This document shows, one piece after another, positions 2,863-63,017 of a stretch of 64,000 nucleotides of DNA (position 1 is its first letter; each line of letters starts with the position of its first letter). This stretch comes from Escherichia phage vB_EcoM_I14.1: sequence record PP892526.1; one strand, written 5' to 3'. Both the position numbers and the translations under genes were made by a program. Under the pieces are notes generated by a model, which was given only the letters and a program-made list of their open reading frames with translations, searched no databases and was not told the origin of the DNA.

Positions 2863-8246
<5,384 letters not shown>

Positions 8247-10877: not shown

Positions 10878-12053
10878 ATGGCAGTAGGTGAAATTCAAAT
10901 TAGTGCCTTGCCACAAGCGGCCTTACCAGTTGATTTAAGTGATATCTTCCATCTCAAGCAAGGTGTTGAGGATAAAAGATGTACGCTTGAACAGTTGTTA
11001 GCACCTCACGCATCTCTGAGGAATAACCCTCATGGTGTAACTAAATCACAAGTTGGTCTTGATAATGTTATTAACTCTCTTCAATTAGTTGCAGCTAATA
11101 ACTTGTCAGATATTGTAAGTGTTGCTGAGGCAAGAGCAAATCTACAAATTATGTCGTCAGAGGAAGTGAATAACTTAATTCAGCAACATATTGACGACAA
11201 AAGTAACCCACACAATACAACGAAAGCACAGGTTGGTTTAAGTAATGTTCAGAACTGGACAACATCTAATCTGTACAATGAAGATGCTGATAAGTATGCT
11301 ACCGCGAAAGCAGTTAATAATTTATATAAAGCTATCCAAGCGTCATATCCAGTAGGGACTATTCATCTATCTGTTAACTCTGCTAACCCATCCACTTACT
11401 TGCTTTGTGGAGGTACTTGGGAGTTAGTTTCTAAAGGTAGAGCATTAGTTGGTTATGATACAGATTCTAGACCTGTTGGTTCAACGTTTGGTTCTCAGAC
11501 TGTAGCATTAACAAATAATAATTTACCAGCACATACTCACTCTATCTATCTAACAGGTGGTGGTCATACACACTCTGCAAGTGTATCTATCTCTAGTTTT
11601 GATTATGGTTCAAAAAGTACATCAACTTTTGATTACGGTACAAAAACGACTAATAGTGCTGGTGCTCACACTCACACGTTTAGTGGCACAACAAGTAATG
11701 CTGGTAACCACAACCATAGAGTCCCTATGAGGGGTAATGATAGGGGTGGCACAAACGCTATTACTGCATCTGCTGATGCTGGTGTTGGTAATGCTATGTA
11801 TACTGATTTAGCTGGTGCTCACACCCATAGCTTCTCAGGTACAACTGCATCATCTGGTGCTCATAGCCATACTGTCGCAATTGGTGCTCACAGCCACACT
11901 GTTAATATTGGTTCGCACAGTCATACAGGCACTGTTACTGTTTCTAGCTCTGAGCATACACACTCAGGGACATCTGGTTCTGTTGGTGGTGGTCAAGCTT
12001 TCAGTGTTGAGCAGCCATCTTTTGTAGTGTATGTGTGGCAGAGAACAGCTTAA
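10878..12053 (+). CDS. tail fibre protein with His-rich HxH repeat tip
   Basis: C-terminus carries repeated GAHTHSFSG / GAHSHTV / GSHSHTG motifs (HxH repeats as in T4-type fibre tips) and ends in WQRTA. Confidence 0.6.
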   Translation: MAVGEIQISALPQAALPVDLSDIFHLKQGVEDKRCTLEQLLAPHASLRNNPHGVTKSQVGLDNVINSLQLVAANNLSDIVSVAEARANLQIMSSEEVNNLIQQHIDDKSNPHNTTKAQVGLSNVQNWTTSNLYNEDADKYATAKAVNNLYKAIQASYPVGTIHLSVNSANPSTYLLCGGTWELVSKGRALVGYDTDSRPVGSTFGSQTVALTNNNLPAHTHSIYLTGGGHTHSASVSISSFDYGSKSTSTFDYGTKTTNSAGAHTHTFSGTTSNAGNHNHRVPMRGNDRGGTNAITASADAGVGNAMYTDLAGAHTHSFSGTTASSGAHSHTVAIGAHSHTVNIGSHSHTGTVTVSSSEHTHSGTSGSVGGGQAFSVEQPSFVVYVWQRTA

Positions 12054-12062
12054 TTTCTTTAC

Positions 12063-12086
12063 AGGGGCTATAAAGCCCCTTTTAAG
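12063..12086 (+). terminator. hairpin between the two fibre genes (attenuator or weak terminator)
   Basis: aggggct-ataa-agcccct followed by ttt. Confidence 0.35.
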
Positions 12087-12099
12087 AGGAAAATTCATA

Positions 12100-14637
12100 A
12101 TGGCAGATTACAAATTGAGTCAGTTAAACTCAATCGACACAATTCGTTCAGAAGACCTATTGCACATCAGAGTTAAGAAAAGACCTAAAATGTTGGGTGA
12201 CGAAGACCGTAGAATGACCTATCAAGACTTCTTAGCATCTTTTAAACTTGAAAGATTTGTTCAGATTGCTGGTAGTACTATGACAGGTGACTTAGGGATT
12301 GTTAAGTTACTTTATGGTGGTAAGGCAGTATTTGACCCAACAGGCTCTTCTGAGGTTACTATTGGGGATATTTTAAAGACTTTTAAAATTAATTCAAATG
12401 GGCTTAAACTCACTATTGCAGATGCCACAAGGTCGGCAACTGTTTATCATACTTTGAACAAACCAAGCCCTAATGAACTTGGCATGAGAACTAATGAAGA
12501 GAATGATGCAAGATATGCAAGGCTTGCTGTTACAAACACATTCTCTGGAACTCAGAACATTCAAGGTGATGCTAACTTACTTCGCCTTAGAAACCGAAAT
12601 GCAAACAATGCACAATACATTGAAGGTGTAAACCTAGATGGTTCAGCTAGATGGTGGGTTGGTATTGGTAGCAATGGTTCTGACGAAGTAAAACTGTACA
12701 ATAACAAATACAACTCAGTCTTGACTGTTGCAAGTAATATCTCTGTTAATAAATCTTTAGCAATCACTGGACAAGTTCAACCTTCAGATTTCTCTAACTT
12801 AGATGCTAGATACTTCACTCAGACAGTTGCTAATCAGAGATTTGCACAGTTAGCTGGCAATAATACTTTTACAGGTGCTAACACTTTCACTAGCCTTGTT
12901 GTTAAGAAGAATGCTAATGCTATTACTTTGCAGAATACTGATACAAGTACAGCACTTTACATTCTCGGTAAGAAGTCTGATGGAACAAATAAATGGTATG
13001 TTGGTACAGATTCTGACGAGACACGTCTGAACATTTATAACTACCTTACAGGTTCACAGGTTTCACTAGGTACTACTATTGGTATCAATAAGACTGTGCA
13101 AATCACTGGACAAGTTCAACCTTCGGATTGGGCTAATATCGATTCTAGATATATTCCGGCAGCAACATTAAGTACGATTGCAAGAACTAATGCTGCTAAT
13201 ACATTCTCTGCACAACAGGTTATCAACGCTGATGGTGAAGCTCTTGCGTTAAAAGCAAAAACTGCAACGTCATTATTTATTAGAGGTAAGGATGTTGATG
13301 GAACCAGCAAGTGGTATGTTGGTAATGGTGATGCCAGTGATATCTTAAACCTGTATAACTACAAGACAGGTAAAGGGCTTAACATTGGTTCAGTATTTGA
13401 AATGAATGCAACTTTAGCAATCACTGGACAAGTTCAACCTTCTGATTGGGCTAATATTGATGCAAGATACTTTACGCAAAGTGCTAGTGATGGTAGATAC
13501 CTGAGAGTCAGAAGTACTGGCTTCAATAATGGAAACGTTGAAAAGTGGGCTAAAATTGCTACTGTCGTTATGCCGCAATCCGCATCTACTGCGGTGATTG
13601 AAGTGTTTGGTGGGTCTGGTTTTAATGTTAACGCACCACACCAAGCAGGTAAGTGTGAGATTATTTTACGAACATCAAACAATAACCCAAAGGGTTTAAA
13701 TGTTGTAGCTTGGAGAACCGCAGAGAATACCATTGTCACAGATATTGGTTATGTTAACACATCTGGCGACACTTATGATATTTACTGTAGGGTCGGTACG
13801 TACCAAAATGGTACAACATCAAGAGTTCAATCTTCTAGCAATGCAAGTGTGCAGCTATTTGAAGTCCCACAAACGTTTGATGATGCCCCACAAGGTATTG
13901 TGAAGGGTACAATTGCAAAATACTACACAAGTTTGCAAAAGCCAACCCCTTCAGATATCGGTGCATATACTAAAGCTGAAACTGACCAGAAAATTGCAGA
14001 AGCAATCAGTGACTCTACAGACCTGAATAAAATCTATCCAGTCGGTATTGTGACGTGGTTTAACAGTAATGTTAACCCTAATACAGCACTTCCTGGTCTA
14101 ACTTGGACGTACCTGAACAATGGTGTTGGCAGAACTATTAGAATTGCAGCAGCAAATGGCTCAGATGTTGCTACAACTGGTGGTTCAGACTCTGTAACGT
14201 TATCTGTTGGTAACTTACCTTCACACACGCATAGTTTCTCTGCTACCACTTCATCATTTGATTATGGTACTAAGACTTCTAGCACAACTGGTAACCATAA
14301 CCACAACAGGGGGACTATGGAGATTACTGGTACAGTAGGTTACTTCAGAAGTGATTCTAGCAGCTTCTACACAGCAAGTGGTGCATTCACACTTGGTAGT
14401 TCAACTGCTTCTAAAGGTTTTACTGGTTCTAACTTCACTTATGGTATCCCTGCTAACTTCAATGCGTCAAGAACTTGGTCTGGTGTAACGAATACAACAG
14501 GTAACCACAGCCACACTGTTGGTATTGGTGCTCACAGCCACACAGTTAGCGGTAACACAGGTGGTACTGGTTCTGGTTCAGCATTTAGTGTTACTAACCA
14601 GTTCTACAAGTTAATGGCTTGGGTAAGAACTGCTTAA
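12100..14637 (+). CDS. long tail fibre protein (three internal tandem domains, HxH repeat tip)
   Basis: Start taken at ATG 12100 behind RBS aagagga (ORF track begins at 12031); three ~110-aa repeats each ending ITGQVQPSD(W/F)(A/S)N(I/L)D(A/S)RY; C-terminal GNHSHTVGIGAHSHTV and WVRTA. Confidence 0.65.
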   Translation: MADYKLSQLNSIDTIRSEDLLHIRVKKRPKMLGDEDRRMTYQDFLASFKLERFVQIAGSTMTGDLGIVKLLYGGKAVFDPTGSSEVTIGDILKTFKINSNGLKLTIADATRSATVYHTLNKPSPNELGMRTNEENDARYARLAVTNTFSGTQNIQGDANLLRLRNRNANNAQYIEGVNLDGSARWWVGIGSNGSDEVKLYNNKYNSVLTVASNISVNKSLAITGQVQPSDFSNLDARYFTQTVANQRFAQLAGNNTFTGANTFTSLVVKKNANAITLQNTDTSTALYILGKKSDGTNKWYVGTDSDETRLNIYNYLTGSQVSLGTTIGINKTVQITGQVQPSDWANIDSRYIPAATLSTIARTNAANTFSAQQVINADGEALALKAKTATSLFIRGKDVDGTSKWYVGNGDASDILNLYNYKTGKGLNIGSVFEMNATLAITGQVQPSDWANIDARYFTQSASDGRYLRVRSTGFNNGNVEKWAKIATVVMPQSASTAVIEVFGGSGFNVNAPHQAGKCEIILRTSNNNPKGLNVVAWRTAENTIVTDIGYVNTSGDTYDIYCRVGTYQNGTTSRVQSSSNASVQLFEVPQTFDDAPQGIVKGTIAKYYTSLQKPTPSDIGAYTKAETDQKIAEAISDSTDLNKIYPVGIVTWFNSNVNPNTALPGLTWTYLNNGVGRTIRIAAANGSDVATTGGSDSVTLSVGNLPSHTHSFSATTSSFDYGTKTSSTTGNHNHNRGTMEITGTVGYFRSDSSSFYTASGAFTLGSSTASKGFTGSNFTYGIPANFNASRTWSGVTNTTGNHSHTVGIGAHSHTVSGNTGGTGSGSAFSVTNQFYKLMAWVRTA

Positions 14638-18910: not shown

Positions 18911-19450
18911 GGCTACTGCCATCCTTCCATACCTTACCACACCAAACCACACCATACCGAGCCACACCCTACCAGACCCTACCAAACCCGACCGAGCATC
19001 ACTTAAAAATCCTCTTAGAAGACTCTTAAGTGATGTAATCGAATTTTAATGTAGCTCCGATTAACTACCCATACCTCACCTTACTTAACCGTACCGCACA
19101 GAACCACACCAAACCTAACACCACTTCTCATCACCTTATTAAAAACCCTGTTTAAAGACCTTTTAAAAAGATGAGTCTCATTTTAATGTAGATGAGACTA
19201 ACTACCCGCACCGAACCTCACCTGACCTGACAGCACCCGACCTCACCGCGCCATACCATACCATACTTCACTTAAAAATCCTCTTAGAAGGCTCTTAAGT
19301 GATGTAATCGAATTTTTATGTAGCTCCGATTAACTACCCGCACTTTACCAAACCTCACCCTACCCTACCAGACCTTACCTAACCGCGCCGTACCTCATTA
19401 AAAGACCCTCTTAAAGACCTTTTAAAAAGGAGCCTCCGAAGAGGCTACCT
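18911..19450. repeat. tandem array of four ~110-160-bp composite repeats (G-poor CA-rich tract + A/T-rich palindrome + hairpin with conserved loop)
   Basis: Unit ends at 19070, 19207, 19339; units A and C share a ~70-bp near-identical block; unit B keeps loop ttttaatgtag and tail aactaccc with a different stem. Confidence 0.6.
19420..19448 (-). terminator. intrinsic terminator for leftward two-gene cassette
   Basis: Minus strand hairpin gcctc-ttcg-gaggc followed by tccttttt, just past the stop of 19458..19898. Confidence 0.5.
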
Positions 19451-19457
19451 AGTCAAC

Positions 19458-19898
19458 TTAGAAAGGTTTTCTACGTTGCTTATTAATGTTAGCTTTCATA
19501 GCAGCTAAATGGTTTTGCTGTTCAATCAGTCGTGAGCGTTCTTGATGGCTAAGTGCCATAGTGTTCACATTCTCAATCGCTTGAGTGGCTTGCTTTAAAG
19601 CTCGACCAATCTTGCCAGACATTTTACGTTTTGCAATAGTTGCTTGATGCTTAGGTTCAACCACACGATAACCAACACCCATTGAAGCAACCAGATAAAT
19701 CTTCTCTTCTTTAAGAAGCTTCTCAATAAACTTCTCAAGTCGGTTTAGACGTGTAAGCGCATAAGCCTTCATTTCATCTTCGTACTTAACAATGTCACCT
19801 TGATAAGTTGGCTTCACAATACCTAAGAATGTGTCCATCTCAGAATGTGATACAGTGTCACCGTAACTAAACTTTGCTGCTAATGCTTTTGTATTCAT
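19458..19898 (-). CDS. hypothetical protein (repeat-flanked cassette)
   Basis: 146-aa ORF followed by leftward intrinsic terminator. Confidence 0.4.
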   Translation of the reverse strand: MNTKALAAKFSYGDTVSHSEMDTFLGIVKPTYQGDIVKYEDEMKAYALTRLNRLEKFIEKLLKEEKIYLVASMGVGYRVVEPKHQATIAKRKMSGKIGRALKQATQAIENVNTMALSHQERSRLIEQQNHLAAMKANINKQRRKPF

Positions 19899-19900
19899 AA

Positions 19901-20506
<606 letters not shown>

Positions 20507-20574
20507 TTAGTTGATTGTTAAGTTGTTTGTAAAGAACCCTCAACAGAAGACTCTTTAGAAACTTGGTAGATTTT

Positions 20575-20700
20575 TAACGTGGCTACTACCATCCACCCAG
20601 ACTTTACCATACCTCACCAGACCATACCTCACCTGGCCGCGCCTTGCCTTGCCAAACATCACTTAAAAACCCTTTTAAAAGACTCTTAAGTGATGCTGGT
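20575..20700. repeat. fifth copy of the composite repeat (CA-rich tract + catcacttaaaaa...cttaagtgatg palindrome)
   Basis: Shares ggctactaccatcc, the CA-rich tract and the 10-bp-arm palindrome with units at 18911-19450. Confidence 0.55.
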
Positions 20701-39276: not shown

Positions 39277-41421
39277 ATGAACAAAGTACAGATTATTAAA
39301 AAGAATGGCTCACTTGAAGAACCTGATATCAAAAAAGTTTTAGCAGCAGTAACTAAGTCAGCTAACAGGGTTGGGTATAAAGAACTTCCACCAGATGTTA
39401 CCCAAGCTCTTGAGTCAGCATTTATGAGGATTCTGGTAAAGTCCACTAAGCAGAATAATTTGCTCATCTCGGTAAATGACATTCACAGTATTGTTGAGGG
39501 TGCTTTGGCAGAAGTCAATCACGAGATTTATGAGTCTTACTCAACATACAGAAATTACCGTAAAGAGGTTGCTCAAAATTGGGATGAGCTTTACCAAAAG
39601 ACTAAAGACACACTCTTCTTAGGTGACCGTGAAAATGCTAACTTTGACAGCAGTTTAATTTCTACAAAAGGTTCAATTATTCGTGGCTATCTGACTAAAG
39701 AAATCTTTAAACAATACCATTTAACACCAGAGGAACTCGAAGCCATTGAAAAAGGGTTTATCTACATCCATGACTTAAGAGACCTAATTTTTGGTGGTAT
39801 CAACTGTTGCCTGTTTGACATCGGTAAAGTACTGAAAGGTGGCTTTGAAATGTCTGGCATCGAATACTGTGAACCGAAGTCTGTACTGTCAGCCTTACAA
39901 GTTATCGGTGATGTAGTTCTTTCAGCAACTGCACAGCAATTTGGTGGATTTACTTTAGCAGAGATTGATAAGGTACTTGTACCATATGCTAAGAAGTCTC
40001 TACGCTATCATGCTGAGAAAGCAGCATCTTACGGTATTCCTAAAGAACATTACCATAACTATGTCATGGAGCAGTTACAGATTGAATTAACTCAAGGCTT
40101 CCAGTCACTAGAGATGAAGCTAAATACTGTACCTTGTAGCCGTGGTGATTTCGCATTCACAACTTTAACATTTGGTTTACTTGACTCAGACATGTCTAAT
40201 GAAGACAACCGACTACAATACATGATTGCAAACACTATTCTTGATGTTCGCATGAATGGACAAGGTAAGAGCAAGAAGCCTGTTGTATTCCCTAAACTGG
40301 TTTATATTCATGACCAGAAGAGACACGATGAGAATATCTGTCAAGGTCAACTGTACAGTAAAGCTATTGAGTGTTGCTCTAAAGCTATGTATCCAGATTT
40401 CTTAAGTGTATCTGGTCATGGTGCTGTAGCAGAGGCTTTTGAGCGTTCTGGCAAGGTAATTTCACCGATGGGTTGCAGAGCTTTCTTATCCCCATATCTT
40501 AACGAGAATGGAGAAGAGTTCTACGTTGGTCGTGCTAACATTGGTGCTGTATCTTTGAACTTACCAATGCTTTACCAGTATTCTAAAGAGAACGGTTTAG
40601 ATTTCTGGAAAGAGCTTGATAAGTACCTAGAGATGATTCGCAGCTTCCACAAGAAACGCTACGAAATGATTGCTAATATGCCAGCAAGTTCTAACCCTCT
40701 TGCATTCACACAAGGTGGTCTGTACAAAGGGACTAAGAAACCTACTGACAAGGTTGGTTGGGATATCGTGAAGTCTTTCACAGCTTCTTTTGGGGTTACT
40801 GCTCTTGATGAGCTGTCTGTTCTTGCTGAAGGTAAACGACTTCATGAAGTTGGAAGCTATAGTTTTGCATATGATGTTCTGGCATACATCAACATGAAAA
40901 CTGAAGAGTTTAAAAATGAAGATGGCTTCTTATATGCCGTCTATGGGACTCCAGCAGAATCACTTTGTGGAACTCAACTAAAACAGTTCAGAGATATGTT
41001 TGGCGTTATCAAAGGTGTTTCTGACAAGGAATACTTTACAAACAGCTTCCACATGAATGTTGCAGCAGACATCTCACCATTTGAGAAGCAGGACTTAGAA
41101 GAGCCATTCTTCCATATCTGTAGAGGCGGTAGAATCCAGTATGTTAGAGTAGCTAACCCAGAAAACTTACCAGCACTTAAAAGTTGTATTACAAGAGGGA
41201 TGTTGAAAGGTTTTTATCAGGGACTTAACTTTGACTTAGCAATCTGTGAACATTGTGGCAACAGGCCAAAGGCTGATGTTGAAGAATGTGAGGTTTGCCA
41301 TTCACATGACATCTCTGTGATTAACAGAGTGTGTGGGTATCTTGGGTGGACTAAGATTAAAGGCGAATCCCGAATGAATGATGCAAAAATTGCTGAGATT
41401 CGTGACAGGGTTTCTATGTAA
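39277..41421 (+). CDS. nrdD: anaerobic ribonucleotide reductase, class III
   Basis: 714 aa; C-terminal zinc site CEHCG...CEVCHSHD and glycyl-radical motif RVCGYLG. Confidence 0.9.
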   Translation: MNKVQIIKKNGSLEEPDIKKVLAAVTKSANRVGYKELPPDVTQALESAFMRILVKSTKQNNLLISVNDIHSIVEGALAEVNHEIYESYSTYRNYRKEVAQNWDELYQKTKDTLFLGDRENANFDSSLISTKGSIIRGYLTKEIFKQYHLTPEELEAIEKGFIYIHDLRDLIFGGINCCLFDIGKVLKGGFEMSGIEYCEPKSVLSALQVIGDVVLSATAQQFGGFTLAEIDKVLVPYAKKSLRYHAEKAASYGIPKEHYHNYVMEQLQIELTQGFQSLEMKLNTVPCSRGDFAFTTLTFGLLDSDMSNEDNRLQYMIANTILDVRMNGQGKSKKPVVFPKLVYIHDQKRHDENICQGQLYSKAIECCSKAMYPDFLSVSGHGAVAEAFERSGKVISPMGCRAFLSPYLNENGEEFYVGRANIGAVSLNLPMLYQYSKENGLDFWKELDKYLEMIRSFHKKRYEMIANMPASSNPLAFTQGGLYKGTKKPTDKVGWDIVKSFTASFGVTALDELSVLAEGKRLHEVGSYSFAYDVLAYINMKTEEFKNEDGFLYAVYGTPAESLCGTQLKQFRDMFGVIKGVSDKEYFTNSFHMNVAADISPFEKQDLEEPFFHICRGGRIQYVRVANPENLPALKSCITRGMLKGFYQGLNFDLAICEHCGNRPKADVEECEVCHSHDISVINRVCGYLGWTKIKGESRMNDAKIAEIRDRVSM

Positions 41422-41575
41422 AACTTGACAAGGTGGTGTGAGTCTTGATAGGCTTACATCACCTTTTTTATTGGATGTTAGACATGGCAGAGAGTATTAT
41501 TGGGTTGTTCATAGGTTCTGTCTTACTAGGGTTCTTTTTAGGACTTTCTTATTGTGAATTAAGAGGCAAGTTAAA

Positions 41576-50845: not shown

Positions 50846-50925
50846 AGTGTTTGACAAGGGGCTTCAAAGCCCCTTAGAATAACCTCACAAAAATGATTTA
50901 TTAACTAACAAGAGAGAGCAATAAG

Positions 50926-52078: not shown

Positions 52079-52135
52079 GTATTTTGTGCAGAGTGCTGTA
52101 TAATTGTTGTCACGATAAACTAAACAGGAGAACCA

Positions 52136-56476: not shown

Positions 56477-56539
56477 GAAACTCTGTAGAATATTCACAAT
56501 AGACTAAGCCTTTCTTATCTGGTAAATTTTTCAGGTAAG

Positions 56540-56760
56540 GAGGGCTTTTTCATTTCAGGATTGTGCAGGCAGAGTTCTGTAGAGAAATCTGTAGAGAAAA
56601 TTTTGAACTCCAAAGAGAAAATTCATTTTCAAACTGTGCAGGTAATCTCCAAAGAGCTTTTTCATTTTCAAAACGTGCAGACCCCGCTCAGGTCGGGCAA
56701 GAAAAATCATTTTAGAATTGTGCAGGTAGGTGGGTGCAGGTGGGGATGTCGCCATTTCTC
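56540..56760. repeat. cluster of 4-5 direct repeats with core (t)TCATTTtCA(a)a(a)TGTGCAGG
   Basis: Copies near 56548, 56620, 56662, 56705, plus gtgcagg again at 56735; ORF-free, upstream of first early promoter. Confidence 0.5.
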
Positions 56761-56904: not shown

Positions 56905-56993
56905 TTGACTCTCTGACTATGGTTATTTAATATTTGCATCAACGGGGGGCGATGACCTCCCAGCTAACTAACCTTAAACTAGGAGATTCAAAA
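56905..56993 (+). promoter_or_regulatory. early promoter plus conserved leader hairpin and RBS (cassette 1)
   Basis: TTGACT-N17-TAATAT, then aacggggggcgatgacctccc hairpin, then ccttaaactaggagattcaaaaATG. Confidence 0.55.
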
Positions 56994-57374
56994 ATGGCTT
57001 ATCGTGCACCTAAATTCATCAACAAAGACAACTTTCGCAACGTACTGGAGAAGGCACTTGATGAAAAATTTAACGGTAAAATAATTGTTGTTCATGCGTT
57101 CAATTTCAAGTATGATATCAACGGGAATAAAATCAACCATTACACGGCAACCATGTTAGATGGTACGCTATCAAGTGAAAAAGCCGTACTGAATGCACTG
57201 GCAGGACGTGGTAAAAACCTGATAAAATGCGATAAGAGACGTTATCAGGGCGGCGCATATGGTTACGATGATGCTGTTTACCATCTTGAAAATATGGGCT
57301 ATTCAGTGGAAAAAGCTGGAATATCTCAAATAATCGGCAGTGACGGCTATGTGACAATTTTCAAAATTAACTGA
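56994..57374 (+). CDS. early small protein, hypothetical
   Basis: ATG behind conserved ccttaaactaggagattcaaaaATG; promoter 56905-56933 upstream (ORF track 56934). Confidence 0.45.
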   Translation: MAYRAPKFINKDNFRNVLEKALDEKFNGKIIVVHAFNFKYDINGNKINHYTATMLDGTLSSEKAVLNALAGRGKNLIKCDKRRYQGGAYGYDDAVYHLENMGYSVEKAGISQIIGSDGYVTIFKIN

Positions 57375-57376
57375 TA

Positions 57377-57462
57377 AAGTACTTTACAAGGGGCTTATAG
57401 TTCGATAAAGTAAGCCCCAGATAAAGAGCTTTACCACTAAATCCTAAATTGGAGATTCTAAA
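57377..57462 (+). promoter_or_regulatory. intergenic stem-loop + RBS cassette (hairpin type)
   Basis: gtactttacaaggggcttatagttcgataaagtaagccccagataaagagcttta ... ggagattctaaaATG. Confidence 0.5.
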
Positions 57463-57720
57463 ATGGCTATTATCAAAAACGTTGTAATTACTGCAAAAAC
57501 TCGTGATGACGCTCGCATTATGGCTAAAAAGTTATGCGGGAAAGTGATTGACAACGGAAAAAAATCTGCTGTAAGATGGGGCGTGAAAGCTGATAAGCAA
57601 CTAACCTTAAAACGTAATTCAAGCAACCTTTTTAAAGGTGTGGAAACACTTGGTAAAGTGAACGTATTCACTAAGCAAGGTTATAAAATGCACTTATCAT
57701 TAACTGGTAAATTAATCTGA
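57463..57720 (+). CDS. early small basic protein, hypothetical
   Basis: Conserved hairpin-RBS cassette upstream; Lys/Arg-rich 85 aa. Confidence 0.45.
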   Translation: MAIIKNVVITAKTRDDARIMAKKLCGKVIDNGKKSAVRWGVKADKQLTLKRNSSNLFKGVETLGKVNVFTKQGYKMHLSLTGKLI

Positions 57721-57810
57721 TAAAGTACTTTACAAGGGGCTTAAAAGCTGATATCTTAAGCCCCAGATAAAGAGCTTTACTACATTAACCTTAAACTAGG
57801 AGATTCAAAA
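57721..57810 (+). promoter_or_regulatory. intergenic stem-loop + RBS cassette (hairpin type)
   Basis: Same framework; stem ggggcttaa...ttaagcccc with different loop. Confidence 0.5.
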
Positions 57811-58323
57811 ATGAAAACTGTAGACGCTACCTTTGAAGTTGTAAAAGAAAAATTTTCCATCATTTACGAAGCTGTTAACTGCTACGAAGCAAGCCATAGC
57901 CTTGATAATTGGAAATTTACAGATAATCATCAAGGTGGCGTGACTATTAAAAACCCCAACTATCGTTATAATGCTTTTAAATATGCAATCCCTTTACATT
58001 ACAGCCTTAAACAGCTTTCGAGTGACTATGCAAAACAAGGCCGGGAAAACCCTTCAAAAGAGGCTTATATCAGCTTACAAAGAGAACTAGAAAGGGATTT
58101 AGAGGCTTCAGCATATAATATTGCCGCGAAAGTTGTGGATGCAAACGGTAAAACGGTTTTAGAAAGTTTTTATACTGGTTACGCTTTTGATTGGGCATAC
58201 AGTGACGGCGAAGATTTAGAGGATAGACTAAAAGAGGAGGTGAGCAATTCAGGCGCAGAATCTGAAGTATTAGAACGCTTGGAAGCATTAAAAGATTCAG
58301 TGATGAATATCTTTAAGAACTAA
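57811..58323 (+). CDS. early protein, hypothetical
   Basis: Conserved hairpin-RBS cassette upstream. Confidence 0.45.
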   Translation: MKTVDATFEVVKEKFSIIYEAVNCYEASHSLDNWKFTDNHQGGVTIKNPNYRYNAFKYAIPLHYSLKQLSSDYAKQGRENPSKEAYISLQRELERDLEASAYNIAAKVVDANGKTVLESFYTGYAFDWAYSDGEDLEDRLKEEVSNSGAESEVLERLEALKDSVMNIFKN

Positions 58324-58412
58324 ATAGATTTCTTTACACGGGGCTATCAAGCTGATAAGATAGCCCCAGATAAAGAGCTTTATTAACTAACCTTAAACTA
58401 GGAGACTCAAAA
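58324..58412 (+). promoter_or_regulatory. intergenic stem-loop + RBS cassette (hairpin type)
   Basis: Stem ggggctatc...gatagcccc (compensatory change), then agataaagagcttta and RBS. Confidence 0.5.
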
Positions 58413-58709
58413 ATGAAATTATCAAATAAAGTTAGGGAAAATCTAAGCAAGTTACTCAACAAAATTGATTTTATCGAGACATCAAGGAATAGTCATGATG
58501 TTATGGAATGGTTACACGGAAAAATCAAAGGCCGTCGTGTAGTGATTTGCTTATGGAATAGTTGCAGGGAATATAAAAAACCTGTATTACAAGTCAATAT
58601 CTATGATGATACTTTTAAAAGCCATGTAAAGTCTAAAAGTGATTTATTAGAATCCTATGAGATAACTGTAAATGGCAAAGTATCACGTAAAGAGGAAACA
58701 CCATGTTAA
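58413..58709 (+). CDS. early small protein, hypothetical
   Basis: Conserved hairpin-RBS cassette upstream. Confidence 0.45.
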   Translation: MKLSNKVRENLSKLLNKIDFIETSRNSHDVMEWLHGKIKGRRVVICLWNSCREYKKPVLQVNIYDDTFKSHVKSKSDLLESYEITVNGKVSRKEETPC

Positions 58710-59035
58710 TGACTGGTATCACTGCAATCATTGCCATTTTCGCGCTATATAAGGCATATAAAGCCTATAATCTAGCAAATAAGGCAATCACACAGCAGGT
58801 TAGCAATAGCCTTGTAGAAAGCTTTCTAGGGCGTCTCAGTGATGAGCAAATAAAGCGGTTAGAAATGAGCTTCAGATTTCAATCGAGAACTTATCAAATC
58901 AGCGACATTTTCAAAGATGATTTTCAGCTTGTCGATGATTATAACTCCCTGATAAATGCTTTAAATATCAGTGACTTAAAAGACTATTACGCTGTAATTG
59001 TCCAAGAATTGAGCAAACGAAAAAATTTATCTTGA
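58703..59035 (+). CDS. early membrane-anchored protein, hypothetical
   Basis: N-terminal hydrophobic helix ITAIIAIFALY; overlaps previous stop. Confidence 0.4.
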   Translation: MLMTGITAIIAIFALYKAYKAYNLANKAITQQVSNSLVESFLGRLSDEQIKRLEMSFRFQSRTYQISDIFKDDFQLVDDYNSLINALNISDLKDYYAVIVQELSKRKNLS

Positions 59036-59126
59036 TTTTGGTTTTTAAAACAAGTAAATTACTAATCAACGGGGAGGGAATGACCTTCCCCCACTAAATA
59101 AAGTCCTTAAACTAGGAGATTCAAAA
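59032..59126 (+). promoter_or_regulatory. early promoter plus conserved leader hairpin and RBS
   Basis: TTGATT-N17-TAAATT, aatcaacggggagggaatgaccttccccc, ccttaaactaggagattcaaaaATG. Confidence 0.55.
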
Positions 59127-59399
59127 ATGTATACTACTAACAATGGTCGCACTTTAAACGTAACCCTGCGCCACTATGTGAACGGTGTAATGCACTTCGA
59201 GGATTTACAAGCTGAACAACATATACTAGATTGGCAACTTGCAGGACTCCAAAAAACTGCTACCGGATACGGGAAAAAGATTCCAACTAGCTGGAAAGTA
59301 TACTACGAAGGACGTTTGCGCAGAATTTATCAAGATGTATGCAGCAATAGCGCATCAAGTTACATCATGGTAAAAGGTGAAAAATTACACTTAGCATAA
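59127..59399 (+). CDS. early small protein, hypothetical
   Basis: Promoter-leader cassette upstream (59032-59126). Confidence 0.45.
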   Translation: MYTTNNGRTLNVTLRHYVNGVMHFEDLQAEQHILDWQLAGLQKTATGYGKKIPTSWKVYYEGRLRRIYQDVCSNSASSYIMVKGEKLHLA

Positions 59400-59484
59400 A
59401 GTACTTTACAAGGGGCTTATAGTTCGATAAAGTAAGCCCCAGATAAAGAGCTTTATCACTCAATCCTAAATTGGAGATTCTAAA
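59400..59484 (+). promoter_or_regulatory. intergenic stem-loop + RBS cassette (hairpin type)
   Basis: Near-identical to 57377-57462. Confidence 0.5.
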
Positions 59485-59889
59485 ATGGCTATTAATAATC
59501 GTGAGTTATCAATCTTAAAAGCACGTTTGACCGTTAACCGGATTAATGTTATTACATCATCAGCACCTGATGAGACATTGCACAACATTATCGGGAAGAT
59601 TCAAAGTGTTATCTTAGACGTTGAAAGCGTAAAAAACTCACTGGCTGACGTTGCAGCAGGTATCACGCTAGACGGTGCACAATATGAAATGGCTGACATG
59701 TTAGGCAAATCTAAGGTAATGAATAAAGAGCTTGATTTAAAAATGTTCCGCTTTGCCGTGAAAGTGTGGCTATCTGTCGAGTATGACGCAAATTTTGCAA
59801 TCGCTGACTTTTTCGCAACATGGTTGCAACGTAATTTAACAAATCATGATTTTCGTGATATCTGCGACGTAATTTACGCAGAACTTTAA
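59485..59889 (+). CDS. early protein, hypothetical
   Basis: Hairpin-RBS cassette upstream. Confidence 0.45.
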   Translation: MAINNRELSILKARLTVNRINVITSSAPDETLHNIIGKIQSVILDVESVKNSLADVAAGITLDGAQYEMADMLGKSKVMNKELDLKMFRFAVKVWLSVEYDANFAIADFFATWLQRNLTNHDFRDICDVIYAEL

Positions 59890-59898
59890 AAATTTCTC

Positions 59899-59992
59899 TT
59901 GATTTTGGTTTTTAAAACAAGTAAATTATTAATCAACGGGGAGGGAATGACCTTCCCCACTAAGTAAAGTCCTTAAACTAGGAGATTCAAAA
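59899..59992 (+). promoter_or_regulatory. early promoter plus conserved leader hairpin and RBS
   Basis: TTGATT-N17-TAAATT plus leader; ~95% identical to 59032-59126. Confidence 0.55.
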
Positions 59993-60196
59993 ATGGCTAT
60001 TATTAACGGCTTAAACATTGAAACTACTCACATCAAAGATATCAAAGTTGGTGATATAGTCCTTTTTCACGGCGTAGAAAAAACCGTCACTGAAAAGGAT
60101 ATCAAGGAGGATTCATTCATGGGCCGGACTCTCTTCGGTGATTCCTATTGCTTAGGTTACCTTGCAGTTTTAAAAGTTGTCAAAAATAACCGTTAA
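59993..60196 (+). CDS. early small protein, hypothetical
   Basis: Promoter-leader cassette upstream (59899-59992). Confidence 0.45.
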   Translation: MAIINGLNIETTHIKDIKVGDIVLFHGVEKTVTEKDIKEDSFMGRTLFGDSYCLGYLAVLKVVKNNR

Positions 60197-60282
60197 AGTA
60201 CTTTACAAGGGGCTTATAGTTCGATAAAGTAAGCCCCAGATAAAGAGCTTTACCACATTAATCCTAAACTGGAGATTCAAAA
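60197..60282 (+). promoter_or_regulatory. intergenic stem-loop + RBS cassette (hairpin type)
   Basis: Near-identical to 57377-57462. Confidence 0.5.
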
Positions 60283-60825
60283 ATGAAATGCTTTCACGGT
60301 ACTACTCAAGAAAACTTCGTCAACCTGATTAATAACGGTGATAAACCATCAGGCGCATGGAATTGTTCGGATATGGATGGCAATTTTTACGTTTATCCAG
60401 AAAATAAAATCTATGGCGACGATGAGGAAGAAATAATCTCTGAAGGCATTCAACAAGCTTTAGGTAATGCCACTATAACGGCAGCTTTTCAGATGAAAAC
60501 TCAAAACATTGTTATCTTGGAACTTGATATTCCAGAAGATGAGTTGAATGATGATTATTCTTGTGATAATATGTCGAGTGTGGCAAGTTTTACAGAGTAT
60601 TTTGATATAAGCTGGATTAAAAAGGTTTATATCACTGAATTTAATGCTATGTTTTCACCTTTTTGTCTTCCTTCACTGGATAACCCGAACTTAAACTATC
60701 TTGATGAGTCTCTGGAACTTCTCGCTAAAAGTGTTCAGCAATCGGACAGTATTCAGGTTTTTTGTGACATCATGGATACACTAACAGGAAACATTGCAGA
60801 AGAGGATTTGAAGAGTTTTTTCTAA
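60283..60825 (+). CDS. early acidic protein, hypothetical (N-terminal FHGT motif)
   Basis: Hairpin-RBS cassette upstream; FHGT at residues 4-7; acidic. Confidence 0.4.
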   Translation: MKCFHGTTQENFVNLINNGDKPSGAWNCSDMDGNFYVYPENKIYGDDEEEIISEGIQQALGNATITAAFQMKTQNIVILELDIPEDELNDDYSCDNMSSVASFTEYFDISWIKKVYITEFNAMFSPFCLPSLDNPNLNYLDESLELLAKSVQQSDSIQVFCDIMDTLTGNIAEEDLKSFF

Positions 60826-60851
60826 AAACCTATGCAATCACCTTATAAACA

Positions 60852-60878
60852 CTGATTAGCCCCTCACAGGGGCTTTTA
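60852..60878 (+). terminator. hairpin terminator candidate inside early array
   Basis: agcccctc-aca-ggggct followed by ttta. Confidence 0.4.
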
Positions 60879-60891
60879 GGAGGCTTTAATC

Positions 60892-61125
60892 ATGCTTACA
60901 ACCATTTACCTCATCCTTTCTATCTGTAATGGTCATTCGTGTGACTTTAAAGGGCTTGAAGAGTTTACAGGAAGTAAAGAAAATGCTATTCAAGTGTGCC
61001 AGATAGCAAGGCAAGACTATCCCGCCAGTGATGATATACAATGTTACTTTAAGACAGAAGATGAAGACGGTGTCTATTTTGACAGCGTAGACGGTCAATA
61101 TGAAATTATCATTGAAAAAGACTAG
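60892..61125 (+). CDS. early small protein with hydrophobic N-terminus
   Basis: RBS aggagg; terminator-like hairpin upstream. Confidence 0.35.
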   Translation: MLTTIYLILSICNGHSCDFKGLEEFTGSKENAIQVCQIARQDYPASDDIQCYFKTEDEDGVYFDSVDGQYEIIIEKD

Positions 61126-61214
61126 ACAAGCCTGATAAAAGTCTGTAAATTGTCAATCAACGGGAGGTAATAACCTCCCCACTAAGTAAAGTCCTTAAAC
61201 TAGGAGATTCAAAA
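61124..61214 (+). promoter_or_regulatory. early promoter (weaker -35) plus conserved leader hairpin and RBS
   Basis: TAGACA-N17-TAAATT, gtcaatcaacgggaggtaataacctcccc leader. Confidence 0.45.
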
Positions 61215-61556: not shown

Positions 61557-61685
61557 TCAACAACTTACAAAAAACTTTTAAAAAGATGTTGACAATCCCT
61601 CTTGACATTGGTAACTTTGTTCGAGGGGGTTTATCTAAAAGGGATTAACTTAAAAGATTCTTTATAGATAAACTTAAAAAATTGC

Positions 61686-61780
61686 TTGCAATCAACTATC
61701 AAAACAAGTAAATTACTAATCAACGGGAGGGATAACCCCCCCCCCACTAAATAAAGTCCTTAAACTAGGAGATTCAAAAA
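61686..61780 (+). promoter_or_regulatory. early promoter plus leader containing a C10 homopolymer
   Basis: TTGCAA-N17-TAAATT; leader gggagggataacccccccccc with C-run at 61736-61745. Confidence 0.5.
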
Positions 61781-62311
61781 ATGAACAAGTTCAAAGCTAT
61801 CAACTTCATTCGTTCAAATAGTGTTATGTCAAAGCCTGTTAAAGATACCTATGAATTTCGTTGCAATGGGGTGCATTTTGCAACCATTACCAAATCAGAA
61901 AACGGAGCTTATTACATCCATCGCCGTAATGTTGCAACCGTTGTTGTCTCTCACTTTATGCAAGCTGTCGCGGAACTTCTCCCGATGTTTTTAGGGCTTT
62001 ACTTGGATGAGTGTAAAAACGTTCACAATCACGTTAAAAACCTTTTAAACAGTTATAAAATGGCTTATGAACGTTCTATCAAGTCCTTAAACAAGTTTTA
62101 CAACGCACCTAAAAATACTGTATCAATGGCCTACGATGTAAATGGTGAGGCGGTGAGTCTCTTTGAAGTGGAAGAAATCAAGCTGCATGATTTACGCCCT
62201 AGCGGTGACTCTAAGACTCTCGGTGAAGGTTTAACGTTCAATATCAAGAACTTAGAGAAAACTTTAAAAGATATTGAAAAAGATATTGACGAGACAACCA
62301 AAAATCTGTAA
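61781..62311 (+). CDS. early protein, hypothetical
   Basis: Promoter-leader cassette upstream (61686-61780). Confidence 0.45.
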   Translation: MNKFKAINFIRSNSVMSKPVKDTYEFRCNGVHFATITKSENGAYYIHRRNVATVVVSHFMQAVAELLPMFLGLYLDECKNVHNHVKNLLNSYKMAYERSIKSLNKFYNAPKNTVSMAYDVNGEAVSLFEVEEIKLHDLRPSGDSKTLGEGLTFNIKNLEKTLKDIEKDIDETTKNL

Positions 62312-62376
62312 ATTGTCAATCAACGGGAGGGAATGACCTTCCCCACTAAGTAAAGTCCTAAACTGGAGTTATCAAG
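62296..62376 (+). promoter_or_regulatory. early promoter plus conserved leader hairpin and RBS
   Basis: TTGACG-N17-TAAATT, gtcaatcaacgggagggaatgaccttcccc. Confidence 0.5.
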
Positions 62377-62640
62377 ATGGAAAACGTAGAATTAACCGCA
62401 CTATTGCAGATTGCAACTGATAAAGAGGATGTAGCACTGTTCCACCGCATTGAAAGCGATTTGTTCAATGGTGAAATCATTAAAGAATCTTACGAAGTTG
62501 TCGGATTCAAAGATGGTAAATCATTTGGATTCTTTGACCTCGACAAAGGCAAAGCGGTTACAAAATATGATGTTTTATCTTGTGAGATTCTGACAAAATA
62601 CAACGAAAAAAGGCTTGCAACATACGACAACATGCAGTAA
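62377..62640 (+). CDS. early small protein, hypothetical
   Basis: Promoter-leader cassette upstream (variant RBS ctggagttatcaag). Confidence 0.4.
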   Translation: MENVELTALLQIATDKEDVALFHRIESDLFNGEIIKESYEVVGFKDGKSFGFFDLDKGKAVTKYDVLSCEILTKYNEKRLATYDNMQ

Positions 62641-62706
62641 ATTACTAATCAACGGGGAGGGATAACCTCCCCACTAAGTAAAGTCCTTAAACTAGGAGAT
62701 TCAAAA
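62641..62706 (+). promoter_or_regulatory. conserved leader hairpin and RBS (promoter -35 weak)
   Basis: taaattactaatcaacggggagggataacctcccc ... ccttaaactaggagattcaaaaATG. Confidence 0.45.
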
Positions 62707-62961: not shown

Positions 62962-63017
62962 CAACGGGGCTAAATAGCCCCAGATACCTTCACAGCCCCA
63001 TTTAAGGGGCTTTTTTA
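62962..63017 (+). terminator. tandem hairpins with T-run; strong intrinsic terminator closing the early array
   Basis: ggggct-aaat-agcccc, then agcccc-attta-aggggct followed by TTTTTT. Confidence 0.65.

What the first reader, a model, noticed from the sequence alone, without database searches (positions are those of the whole stretch)
57377..60282. Intergenic stem-loop with compensatory stem changes and no U-tract
Five copies of ggggctta(8-9 bp stem)...taagcccc follow early-gene stops. Copies differ in loop and inner stem (cttat/ataag, cttaa/ttaag, ctatc/gatag) yet keep pairing, the signature of selection on structure. The hairpin is followed by agataaagagcttta rather than a T-run, so it is probably not a simple intrinsic terminator; candidate roles are an RNase processing site, a protein recognition element or a recombination junction.
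Basis: seen in the sequence. Interest (0 to 1): 0.5.

Follow-up and report, generated by a model that had tools for sequence, protein, structure and literature searches.

The report
Early promoter–stem-loop cassettes in phage
The repeated hairpin is the core of a ~90-bp intergenic cassette of a Felix O1-like phage, in which a host-type early promoter lies inside a conserved ~20-base-pair RNA stem-loop; these cassettes separate small accessory genes and mark where such genes are gained and lost, much like the 'PeSL' cassettes of T4-like phages.

Summary
There are five copies (0.01 expected by chance), each with a 9-bp G+C-rich stem and no T-run. Compensatory stem changes hold up across 62 distinct copies from four genera of Felix O1-like phages (Ounavirinae).

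(1) The hairpin sits inside a sigma-70-type promoter. TTTACA abuts the 5' arm, and 17 nt later a TAnnnT hexamer lies in the loop and 3' arm. This spacing is kept even when the loop length changes.

(2) The flanks (TAAAGnnCTTTA on each side) pair with each other. Read-through RNA therefore folds into a three-helix stem-loop of about 20-22 bp (-22 to -25 kcal/mol). This longer fold has its own covariation and many G·U pairs that fit only the sense strand. It is the size of T7 RNase III sites.

Two sister cassette types have a simple hairpin downstream of the start site or inside the spacer. All cassettes flank genes of unknown function. At least ten precise gene-sized indels between relatives are bounded by them.

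This matches the architecture of PeSL cassettes of T4-like phages, which have not been described for this phage group. The Felix O1 genome paper listed the sequence only as a direct repeat. Whether the RNA element attenuates transcription, is processed or stabilises mRNA remains untested.

The parts
57375..57462 (+). A-type cassette 1, running from the stop of the 126-aa ORF to the ATG of the 85-aa ORF. -35 TTTACA 57383-57388; -10 TAAAGT 57406-57411; inner hairpin 57390-57418; extended stem-loop 57375-57433; predicted start A57419; GGAG 57451-57454.
57721..57810 (+). A-type cassette 2. -35 57729-57734; -10 TATCTT 57752-57757; inner hairpin 57736-57764; extended stem-loop about 57721-57779.
58324..58412 (+). 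A-type cassette 3, with a loop one base shorter and a different left flank. -35 58333-58338; -10 TAAGAT 58356-58361; inner hairpin 58340-58367; extended stem-loop 58323-58384, with a 7-bp middle helix.
59400..59484 (+). A-type cassette 4. -35 59405-59410; -10 TAAAGT 59428-59433; inner hairpin 59412-59440; extended stem-loop 59396-59456.
60197..60282 (+). A-type cassette 5. -35 60202-60207; -10 TAAAGT 60225-60230; inner hairpin 60209-60237; extended stem-loop 60194-60252.
56905..56996 (+). B-type cassette 0, the first promoter of the rightward gene cluster. TTGACT-17-TAATAT, then hairpin GGGGGGcgatgaCCTCCC at 56944-56961, then the shared RBS.
59032..59126 (+). B-type cassette 1. TTGATT 59032-59037; TAAATT 59055-59060; hairpin 59071-59091, at about +5..+25 of its own transcript.
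59899..59992 (+). B-type cassette 2. TTGATT 59899-59904; TAAATT 59922-59927; hairpin 59938-59958.
61123..61214 (+). B-type cassette 3. TAGACA 61123-61128; TAAATT 61146-61151; hairpin 61162-61179.
61686..61780 (+). B-type cassette 4. TTGCAA 61686-61691; TAAATT 61709-61714; degenerate hairpin GGGAGGGataaC(10) at 61725-61745.
62286..62376 (+). B-type cassette 5. TTGACG 62286-62291; TAAATT 62309-62314, overlapping the upstream stop codon; hairpin 62325-62343.
62615..62706 (+). B-type cassette 6. TTGCAA 62615-62620; TAAATT 62638-62643; hairpin 62654-62672.
50851..50880 (+). C-type promoter. TTGACA-a-GGGGCTtcaaAGCCCC-t-TAGAAT, with the hairpin entirely inside the 18-nt spacer. It starts 6 nt after the upstream stop codon (the hairpin 13 nt after it) and lies upstream of the rIIA-like gene. 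It is conserved in all genera sampled.
62966..63017 (+). End of the cluster. An A-like hairpin remnant, GGGGCTaaatAGCCCC followed by AGATACC, is followed by a canonical terminator, AGCCCCatttaaGGGGC plus TTTTTT.

Best explanation
The window comes from a Felix O1-like myovirus (Felixounavirus). The five hairpins are the cores of a repeated intergenic regulatory cassette that carries two overlapping signals.

On the DNA it is a host sigma-70 early promoter: A-rich upstream region, -35 TTTACA, 17-nt spacer, -10 TAnnnT, and a start at the A of AGATAAAG. This is followed by a shared GGAG ribosome-binding site and the ATG of the next small gene.

On RNA that reads in from upstream, the same ~60 nt fold into an irregular stem-loop of about 20-22 bp. 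The outer helix is UAAAGU/GCUUUA. The middle helix is CUUUA/UAAAG, pairing the -35 region with +4..+8.

I infer that this RNA structure marks the boundary of the upstream cistron. It would act either as a processing site of the T7 RNase III type, whose cut in the AGA side of the internal loop would coincide with the promoter's own start, or as a 3'-exonuclease barrier. At most it would weakly attenuate transcription. I do not think it is an efficient terminator.

Because the cassettes are repeated between nearly every gene of this accessory early cluster, they also act as portable homology. Recombination between two cassettes deletes, inserts or swaps whole promoter-gene modules.

Shown here: repetition, promoter geometry, RNA-strand-specific covariation, the extended fold, and cassette-bounded indels. 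Inferred: promoter activity, with indirect support from published RT-PCR, and the biochemical fate of the RNA structure.
For: Identity. The region is 99.7% identical to Escherichia phage vB_EcoM_D4 and about 90% identical to many Felixounavirus genomes. The cassette is found in Felixounavirus, Mooglevirus, Suspvirus and Kolesnikvirus.

Promoter.
- A hairpin-only scan finds cTTTACA directly 5' of every A-type stem.
- Nearly all of the roughly 45 unique A-type cores have TAnnnT 17 nt downstream; a few have 18 nt and one lacks the final T.
- In an unconstrained MAFFT alignment, the T and A of that hexamer are invariant loop positions and the last T is at least 90% conserved, while neighbouring positions vary.
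- A 1-nt loop deletion class keeps the 17-nt spacing and shifts the stem register instead.
- B-type cassettes show six different TTGnnn-like -35 hexamers, always 17 nt from TAAATT. The C-type is TTGACA-18-TAGAAT.
- Felix O1 ORF16 and ORF20, directly downstream of its two A repeats, peak at 5 min after infection.

Structure.
- Inner-helix covariation is strong.
- The full intergenic RNA folds into the three-helix structure in all window copies and in Sf13, Felix O1 and Erwinia M7, with z from -3.5 to -5.9.
- RNAalifold on 29 diverse copies predicts the same three helices.
- In the outer helix, G-C (77) changes to U-A (10), with few intermediates (Fisher 2e-9). Pairing is 93.9% against 89.9% in shuffles (0/1000).

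Sense strand.
- In the inner stem there are 45 G·U cells against 1 A·C cell.
- There is a U·G at L(-3)-R8 in 87 of 96 flank combinations.
- The + strand RNA is more stable than its complement in 45 of 62 cores (p 4e-6).

Size class. T7 RNase III sites folded with the same tool show a 9-13-bp upper stem, an internal loop and a 5-7-bp A+U-rich lower stem.

Not a strong terminator.
- There is no T-run.
- B-type hairpins lie at +5..+25 of their own transcripts.
- The cluster ends with an A-like hairpin followed by a separate canonical terminator.

Modularity.
- The flanked ORFs have no Pfam match and only unknown-function PHROG families.
- 45% of 80 distinct breakpoint ends fall in cassette intervals that make up 17% of the region (p 1e-8).
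- At least 10 indels have one cassette in one genome aligning to both flanking cassettes in the other.
Against: - No transcription start, 3'-end or cleavage data exist for any Felix O1-like phage in the searchable literature.
- The -10 hexamers match the consensus at only 4 of 6 positions.
- TTTACA and the middle helix never vary. Their conservation therefore cannot be assigned to the promoter or to the RNA helix separately.
- The shuffle controls ignore phylogeny and gene conversion between copies, so the p-values are optimistic.
- The 10-11-nt apical loop is larger than in T7 RNase III sites.
- B and C cassettes have only a simple hairpin, so the extended helix is not needed for every cassette.
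- The PeSL authors report that one U-tract-less stem-loop (RB49 211/210, read) lowered reporter expression as much as rrnB T1. That would favour real termination.
- Breakpoints at gene boundaries are also expected from selection for intact genes.
Confidence: 0.68

Rival explanations
1. The element is purely an RNA processing site. It would be an intercistronic RNase III-type (or other endonuclease) signal in a long early transcript driven by the B-type promoters. Its resemblance to a promoter would be a by-product of the helix sequence.
For: The extended helix is about 20-22 bp with an internal loop, the same size class as T7 R-sites folded with the same tool. TTTACA is itself one strand of the middle helix. 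The -10 hexamers are only 4 of 6 matches. A-type cassettes always lie downstream of a B-type promoter in the cluster.
Against: An RNA helix does not explain two invariant loop bases (T, A) and a stem T forming TAnnnT exactly 17 nt from TTTACA. It also does not explain why that spacing is kept when the loop loses a base. Sister cassettes B and C, and the RB49 PeSLs with the same layout, are clear promoters.
Confidence: 0.12
2. The element is an efficient factor-independent terminator, as claimed for PeSL stem-loops. It would make each small gene a closed transcription unit that its own promoter restarts.
For: It lies 13-16 nt after stop codons. The RB49 PeSL211/210 stem-loop, which also lacks a U-tract, was reported to reduce lacZ expression like rrnB T1. 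At window 41425 the same layout (-35, hairpin, -10 in the loop) does carry a T-run.
Against: There is one T in the 8 nt after the stem, while the same genome uses canonical hairpin-plus-T-run terminators. TransTerm did not list these hairpins in Felix O1. Equivalent U-less hairpins sit inside the 5' leaders of B-type transcripts. The cluster needs a separate canonical terminator after its last A-like hairpin. The conserved lower helices are not a feature of intrinsic terminators.
Confidence: 0.12
3. The element acts at the DNA level. The two TAAAGnnCTTTA palindromes would be operators for a dimeric phage regulator that shuts off early promoters, or the inverted repeat would extrude as a cruciform.
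For: Palindromes are centred at about -38 and +8, and some copies have perfect 16-18-bp palindromes.
Against: When G(-4) or C(+9) change, their partners within the same palindrome stay invariant, and it is the base in the other flank that co-varies. G·T is common and A·C almost absent, so the complementary strand could not form the same structure. Loops of 10-11 nt disfavour cruciform extrusion (established knowledge).
Confidence: 0.05
4. The element is a site-specific recombination or mobile-element end. The cassette would be recognised by a dedicated recombinase or nuclease rather than serving as passive homology.
For: Gene-sized indels are bounded by cassettes. Mini-circles were reported for PeSLs.
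Against: Crossover overlaps vary from 22 to 101 nt and fall in different parts of the cassettes, including A/B chimeras joined in the shared RBS. This is typical of homologous exchange. No recombinase is evident among the flanked ORFs.
Confidence: 0.03

Closest known systems
PeSL (promoter-early stem-loop) cassettes of T4-like phages RB49, phi1, PST and nt-1 (Arbiol et al. 2010, PMC2839356; Comeau et al. 2014, PMC4122927)
   Same: The order of parts is the same: stop codon, A+T-rich stretch, sigma-70 -35, polyG/polyC stem-loop in the spacer or overlapping the -10, then SD and ATG. G·T pairs occur in the stems. There are several subclasses defined by stem-loop position. The cassettes cluster among unknown-function genes, and gene-sized indels are bounded by them. 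RB49 copies read directly show my C-type layout (211/210) and A-type layout (228/227), and an almost identical RBS, GGAGAATCAAAAATG.
   Different: The phage lineage is different (Ounavirinae, not Straboviridae). BLAST finds no similarity outside Ounavirinae, and profile similarity to RB49 PeSLs is only marginal (E 7e-4 to 0.02). The A-type here has an additional conserved lower helix pair that makes a structure of about 20-22 bp, which the PeSL papers do not describe. Promoter, terminator and mini-circle activities have not been tested here.
RNase III processing signals of the phage T7 early region (R0.3, R0.5, R1, R1.1, R1.3)
   Same: Both are intercistronic elements in early mRNA made by the host polymerase. 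Both have a G+C-rich upper stem of 9-13 bp, an internal loop and an A+U-rich lower stem, and neither has a U-tract. Free energies are comparable when folded with the same tool.
   Different: There is no sequence similarity. The apical loop is 10-11 nt here against 4-5 nt in T7. This element overlaps a promoter. Cleavage is untested. The T7 site positions were taken from memory, because the record does not annotate them.
Intrinsic (Rho-independent) terminators
   Same: A G+C-rich hairpin shortly after a stop codon.
   Different: There is no U-tract, and there are conserved lower helices.
Intercistronic stabiliser hairpins (REP elements; selective RNA processing and stabilisation)
   Same: A stable U-less hairpin after a cistron, which could block 3' exonucleases.
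   Different: This element is embedded in a promoter, is phage-specific, and includes an extended helix. The comparison is by analogy only.
Hairpin promoters of phage N4 virion RNA polymerase
   Same: A hairpin within a phage early promoter.
   Different: N4 hairpins have a 5-7-bp stem and a 3-nt loop and are read by a phage-encoded virion polymerase. The Felix O1 paper reports no phage RNA polymerase, and the layout here fits sigma-70.

Membership tests
PeSL-type composite promoter/stem-loop cassette | Sigma-70-like -35 and -10 hexamers with 16-18-nt spacing | tested here: met
   TTTACA-17-TAnnnT in all five window copies and in nearly all of the roughly 45 unique A-type cores (a few at 18 nt, one without the final T). 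The T, A and final T are conserved in the unconstrained alignment.
PeSL-type composite promoter/stem-loop cassette | Stable polyG/polyC stem-loop between -35 and -10, overlapping the -10, or just downstream | tested here: met
   A-type overlaps the spacer, -10 and discriminator. C-type lies within the spacer. B-type lies downstream of the -10.
PeSL-type composite promoter/stem-loop cassette | Upstream stop codon in an A+T-rich stretch, and a downstream SD plus ATG | tested here: met
PeSL-type composite promoter/stem-loop cassette | Many copies clustered among small genes of unknown function | tested here: met
   12 cassettes lie between 56.9 and 62.7 kb. The ORFs have no Pfam match and only unknown-function PHROG families. 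No A-type copy occurs elsewhere in the window or in the remaining 25 kb of the near-identical D4 genome.
PeSL-type composite promoter/stem-loop cassette | Insertions, deletions and replacements between related genomes are bounded by cassettes | tested here: met
PeSL-type composite promoter/stem-loop cassette | Demonstrated promoter and terminator/attenuator activity, and mini-circle formation | not testable with these tools
   The only indirect evidence is early RT-PCR signal for Felix O1 ORF16 and ORF20.
PeSL-type composite promoter/stem-loop cassette | Sequence homology to RB49/phi1 PeSLs | tested here: inconclusive
   BLAST finds none. The best nhmmer hits all fall on RB49 PeSLs, but with E values of only 7e-4 to 0.02, and the matching parts are shared functional motifs.
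Intrinsic terminator | Hairpin immediately followed by a U-rich tract | tested here: not met
   AGATAAAG follows the stem, and the copies are absent from the terminator scan that finds the genome's canonical terminators.
RNase III processing signal (T7 type) | About two turns of mostly double-stranded RNA, often interrupted by an internal loop | tested here: met
   The 9-bp hairpin alone is too short. The conserved extended fold is 20-22 bp with 3x3 and 1x1 loops, comparable to T7 sites.
RNase III processing signal (T7 type) | Cleavage by RNase III at a defined position; absence of antideterminant base pairs | not testable with these tools
   No cleavage data exist, and the antideterminant rules were not evaluated.
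Rfam RNA families | Match to any curated covariance model | tested here: not met
   No relevant hit at E<=1 in 50-64 kb.

The most novel reading that the evidence does not exclude
A sigma-70 promoter and an RNase III-type processing site are deliberately superimposed. Read-through transcripts would be cut in the AGA side of the internal loop, at the very nucleotides where promoter-initiated transcripts begin. Every gene would then get the same 5' leader whichever way its mRNA arises, and the upstream mRNA would keep a protective 3' hairpin. Such self-insulating 'plug-and-play' expression cassettes would explain why unrelated accessory genes can be swapped freely, and perhaps between phage families, given the PeSL-like layout and the near-identical RBS in RB49.
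Probability: 0.2. Interest if true: 0.7.

Novelty: new variant of a known kind. Interest (0 to 1): 0.48.

Why it matters
Felix O1-like phages are widely used for Salmonella and E. coli typing, biocontrol and therapy. The Felix O1 genome paper states that their temporal regulation is unknown, and it did not call these promoters.

Recognising the cassettes has three consequences.
- It provides a transcription map of the accessory early region: one promoter per small gene.
- It explains how this region gains and loses genes. That matters for predicting anti-defence content and for engineering insertion sites.
- It extends the PeSL principle beyond T4-like phages.

The extended, covarying RNA helix wrapped around a promoter gives a concrete, testable case of one sequence under simultaneous DNA-level and RNA-level selection.

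Tried and rejected
- Canonical terminator: rejected because there is no T-run.
- Known RNA family: none in Rfam.
- Structure in the promoter's own 5' leader (AGAUAAAG... to AUG): no better than shuffles, z from -0.4 to +0.4.
- Two palindromic operators: rejected by which positions co-vary.
- Cruciform or antisense-strand structure: disfavoured by the G·U against A·C asymmetry and by the strand energy comparison.
- 'RNase III impossible because the stem is only 9 bp': I first held this view and dropped it after folding the whole intergenic RNA.
- Extended helix in B and C cassettes: not found.
- The MAFFT alignment of whole cores (A3) could not be used for pair counting, because it aligns the -10 and so shifts the stem register of the short-loop class. 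I used a loop-excised, end-anchored alignment instead (A4).
- Homology to RB49 PeSLs: not demonstrable.
- Published transcript maps or any PeSL mention for Felix O1-like phages: none found.
- Right-flank invariance measured is partly circular, because the search pattern required GATAAAGA. The hairpin-only scans are the unbiased evidence.


Full report
**What the window is.** The stretch 57000-60600 is 99.7% identical to Escherichia phage vB_EcoM_D4. It is about 90% identical to more than a hundred Felix O1-like myoviruses (Felixounavirus). The finding lies in a rightward cluster of fourteen small ORFs (56.9-63.0 kb) that follows the rIIA/rIIB, spanin and macro-domain genes. Ten of these ORFs were scanned. 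All match only PHROG families of unknown function and no Pfam family.

**Check of the observation.** GGGGCT...AGCCCC occurs at 57390, 57736, 58340, 59412 and 60209 on the + strand, and a short relative occurs at 62966. That is 6 matches against 0.01 expected.
- All five copies are followed by AGATAAAGAGCTTTA.
- Each folds into a 9-bp stem with a 10-11-nt loop, at -13.9 to -16.7 kcal/mol.
- None passes a hairpin-plus-T-run scan that does find the genome's canonical terminators.
- Copies 1, 4 and 5 have identical hairpins, so the window offers only three variants.
- The commonest variant ends in a U·G wobble (cttat/gtaag), not a Watson-Crick pair.

**The hairpin sits inside a promoter.**
- In every copy, TTTACA lies one base before the stem, and 17 nt later comes TAAAGT, TATCTT or TAAGAT.
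- I fetched the homologous region from Sf13 (Mooglevirus), SUSP1 (Suspvirus), Erwinia M7 and Salmonella SE5 (Kolesnikvirus), Felix O1 and UAB_Phi87, plus 28 IMG/VR contigs.
- A scan for hairpins alone finds cTTTACA before every A-type stem.
- About 45 unique cores carry TAnnnT at 17 nt, or occasionally 18 nt. The hexamers include TAAAGT, TAAGAT, TATCTT, TAGTAT, TATGAT, TAGGAT, TACCAT and TAATCT.
- In an unconstrained alignment of 62 unique cores, the T and A are invariant loop positions and the final T is at least 90% conserved, while their neighbours vary.
- A class whose loop is one base shorter keeps the 17-nt spacing and shifts the stem register instead.
- The three positions conserved here are the ones most conserved in sigma-70 -10 hexamers (established knowledge).
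- The predicted start is the A of AGATAAAG, directly after the stem.

**Sister cassettes.**
- A second family (B, seven copies in the window) has six different TTGnnn-like -35 hexamers, always 17 nt before TAAATT. A hairpin GGGGAGGG...CCTTCCCC then lies at about +5..+25, followed by the same ribosome-binding site.
- A third type (C, 50851) is TTGACA-a-GGGGCTtcaaAGCCCC-t-TAGAAT, with the hairpin inside the spacer.
- At 41425, the same layout as the A-type carries a true T-run.

**Covariation of the inner stem.** I defined copies by their flanks only (TTTACA ... GATAAAGA). This gives 153 copies, all on the gene strand, with 62 unique cores. Counted from fixed anchors, pairs 1-9 are almost always paired.
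- Pair 3 is G-C (53) or U-A (8).
- Pair 7 is U-A (50) or A-U (11).
- Pair 8 is A-U (47) or U-A (9).
- Pair 9 has five pair types.
- Pair 5 runs C-G (27), U·G (32), U-A (1).

On a loop-excised alignment, 96.7% of cells pair against 81.5% in shuffles (0/500). There are 42 double-change cells against 9.5 (0/500). Slid registers give 22-55% pairing.

**The structure is larger than reported.**
- Folding the whole intergenic RNA pairs the left flank with the right flank. The outer helix is UAAAGU/GCUUUA (6 bp), followed by a 1x1 loop. The middle helix is CUUUA/UAAAG (5 bp), which pairs the -35 region with +4..+8. Then come a 3x3 loop (CAA/AGA) and the inner helix.
- All window copies fold this way, as do copies from Sf13, Felix O1 and Erwinia M7, at -22 to -25 kcal/mol and z from -3.5 to -5.9.
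- Copy 3 has a different left flank but reaches the same fold in the same register.
- Across 96 unique flank combinations the register is constant. The outer-helix pair L(-4)/R9 is G-C in 77 and U-A in 10, with 5 single-sided intermediates and 4 other non-pairs (Fisher 2e-9). Outer-helix pairing is 93.9% against 89.9% in shuffles (0/1000), and slid registers give 22-55%.
- RNAalifold on 29 diverse copies predicts the same three helices independently.
- When G(-4) or C(+9) change, the partner within the same local palindrome stays fixed and the base in the other flank changes. This supports a long-range helix rather than two operator palindromes. It also explains why AGATAAAGAG is invariant: it pairs with the promoter's -35 region, which cannot change.
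- B and C cassettes show only the simple hairpin.

**Which strand.** Single-sided changes give G·U on the + strand almost exclusively.
- There are 45 G·U cells against 1 A·C cell in the inner stem.
- There is a U·G at L(-3)/R8 in 87 of 96 combinations.
- The dominant B stem also carries a G·U.
- The + strand RNA is more stable than its complement in 45 of 62 cores, -13.5 against -11.5 kcal/mol, p 4e-6.
- Mooglevirus and Suspvirus B loops are GAGA or GAAA, and the genome's terminators use UUCG loops.

The structure is therefore selected on the sense strand, most simply as RNA. Transcripts that start at the cassette's own promoter contain only the 3' half, and their leader has no significant structure. 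The fold can therefore exist only in RNA that reads through from upstream.

**What the RNA element does (inferred).** A strong terminator is unlikely, for three reasons.
- There is no U-tract.
- Similar hairpins sit in the leaders of B transcripts.
- The cluster ends with an A-like hairpin followed by a separate canonical terminator.

The 9-bp stem alone is too short for RNase III, but the conserved 20-22-bp interrupted helix is not. The five T7 early RNase III regions, folded with the same tool, show a 9-13-bp upper stem, an internal loop and a 5-7-bp A+U-rich lower stem. The T7 site positions are from my own knowledge, because the record does not annotate them. A T7-like cut on the 3' side of the internal loop would fall at AGA, which is +1..+3 of the promoter. 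The alternatives are a 3'-exonuclease barrier or weak attenuation. The PeSL authors report that one U-less stem-loop of RB49 lowered reporter expression as much as rrnB T1. I read that sequence directly. Termination therefore cannot be dismissed.

**Gene shuffling.**
- Alignment blocks between the window and relatives break at the cassettes.
- 36 of 80 distinct breakpoint ends lie within strict cassette intervals that make up 17% of the region (p 1e-8). Most of the rest lie within 15 nt of one.
- At least ten indels have a single cassette in one genome aligning to both flanking cassettes of the other, with 22-101 nt of overlap.
- Felix O1 lacks 59998-61146 (B2 to B3) and 62368-62637 (B5 to B6).
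- Other contigs lack the ORF between A1 and A2, A2 and A3, B2 and A5, or B4 and B5, or carry extra modules.
- This is the signature of exchange between repeated cassettes. Selection for intact genes would also bias breakpoints toward gene boundaries.

**Comparison with what is known.**
- PeSL cassettes of RB49 and phi1 are defined as a stop codon, an A+T-rich stretch, a sigma-70 promoter, a polyG/polyC stem-loop in one of five positions relative to the promoter, then SD and ATG. They cluster among ORFans, bound indels and form mini-circles.
- Every architectural criterion is met here. The activity criteria cannot be tested.
- RB49 cassettes read directly show my C-type and A-type layouts, and the RBS GGAGAATCAAAAATG against GGAGATTCAAAAATG here.
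- BLAST finds the A cassette only in Ounavirinae-sized genomes. Profile hits on RB49 PeSLs are marginal. Homology as opposed to convergence remains open.
- The PeSL papers concern T4-like phages only and do not mention Felix O1-like phages. No paper combines Felixounavirus with PeSL.
- The Felix O1 genome paper lists the 57-bp A repeat and the 39-bp B repeat only as direct repeats. It did not call them promoters or terminators, and it states that temporal regulation is unknown.
- Its RT-PCR table places ORF16 and ORF20, directly downstream of the two A repeats, among the genes maximal at 5 min.
- There is no Rfam match.

**Verdict.** The element is a new variant of a known kind: PeSL-type cassettes in a new phage lineage, with an extra conserved RNA helix. 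Interest is moderate. It would rise if the superimposed promoter and processing-site reading is confirmed.

Noticed in passing
window 41419-41470: A stop codon is followed by TTGACA-18-TAGGCT, with a 14-bp hairpin (AGGTGGTGTGAGTCttgataGGCTTACATCACCT) that starts right after the -35 and is followed by TTTTTTATT. This is a canonical terminator overlapping a promoter-like site, with the same layout as the A-type cassette but with a U-tract.
   Followed up: partly
window 56550-56730: Between the terminator at 56506-56547 and cassette B0 there are three or four ~40-nt direct repeats, each ending in (A/T)TGTGCAGG (for example CTCCAAAGAGAAAATTCATTTTCAAACTGTGCAG). The same TGTGCAG word follows terminators near 52080 and in Sf13. 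These could be iterons or regulator sites. Some relatives annotate small minus-strand ORFs here.
   Followed up: no
window 18912-20695: Three or four copies of a 79-186-nt repeat are made of ACCnnACC-like pentamer/hexamer periodicity, followed by CACTTAAAAATCCTCTTAGAAGACTCTTAA (repeat families D3, D5 and D7). Their nature is unknown.
   Followed up: no
window 60826-60891: The one gene junction in the cluster without a promoter cassette has a canonical-looking terminator, GCCCCTcacaGGGGC plus TTTTAGG, directly before the SD of the 77-aa ORF. It is also a recurrent alignment breakpoint (60858).
   Followed up: partly
L036 (RB49 118000-140000), e.g. 4245-4301 and 13660-13726 on the minus strand: RB49 PeSLs share with these cassettes an almost identical RBS-to-ATG string. 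One copy also shares a CAATCAnnGGGAGG...CTCCCAC core resembling the B-type. The Kolesnikvirus second cassette type shares CCCC(A/G)TCGAAAC with RB49 leaders. nhmmer gives E values from 7e-4 to 0.02.
   Followed up: partly
L003 8596-8640, 11093-11140; L006 7651-7700: Kolesnikvirus (Erwinia and Salmonella SE5) phages have a second promoter-hairpin type, TTGCAA/TTTACA followed by GGGGTTAcggttatgagactaTAACCCC. It lacks the AGATAAAG flank and has a weak -10 (GACTAT).
   Followed up: no
window 11649-14558: Repeated GGTGCTCACAGCCACACTGTT-type units (His-x-His motifs) occur within large ORFs, probably the repeats shared between two genes (gp76 and gp77) that the Felix O1 paper noted.
   Followed up: no
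window 61557-61700: An unusually long spacer (about 140 nt) before cassette B4 contains two tandem TTGACA hexamers (61569-61591) and no ORF.
   Followed up: no
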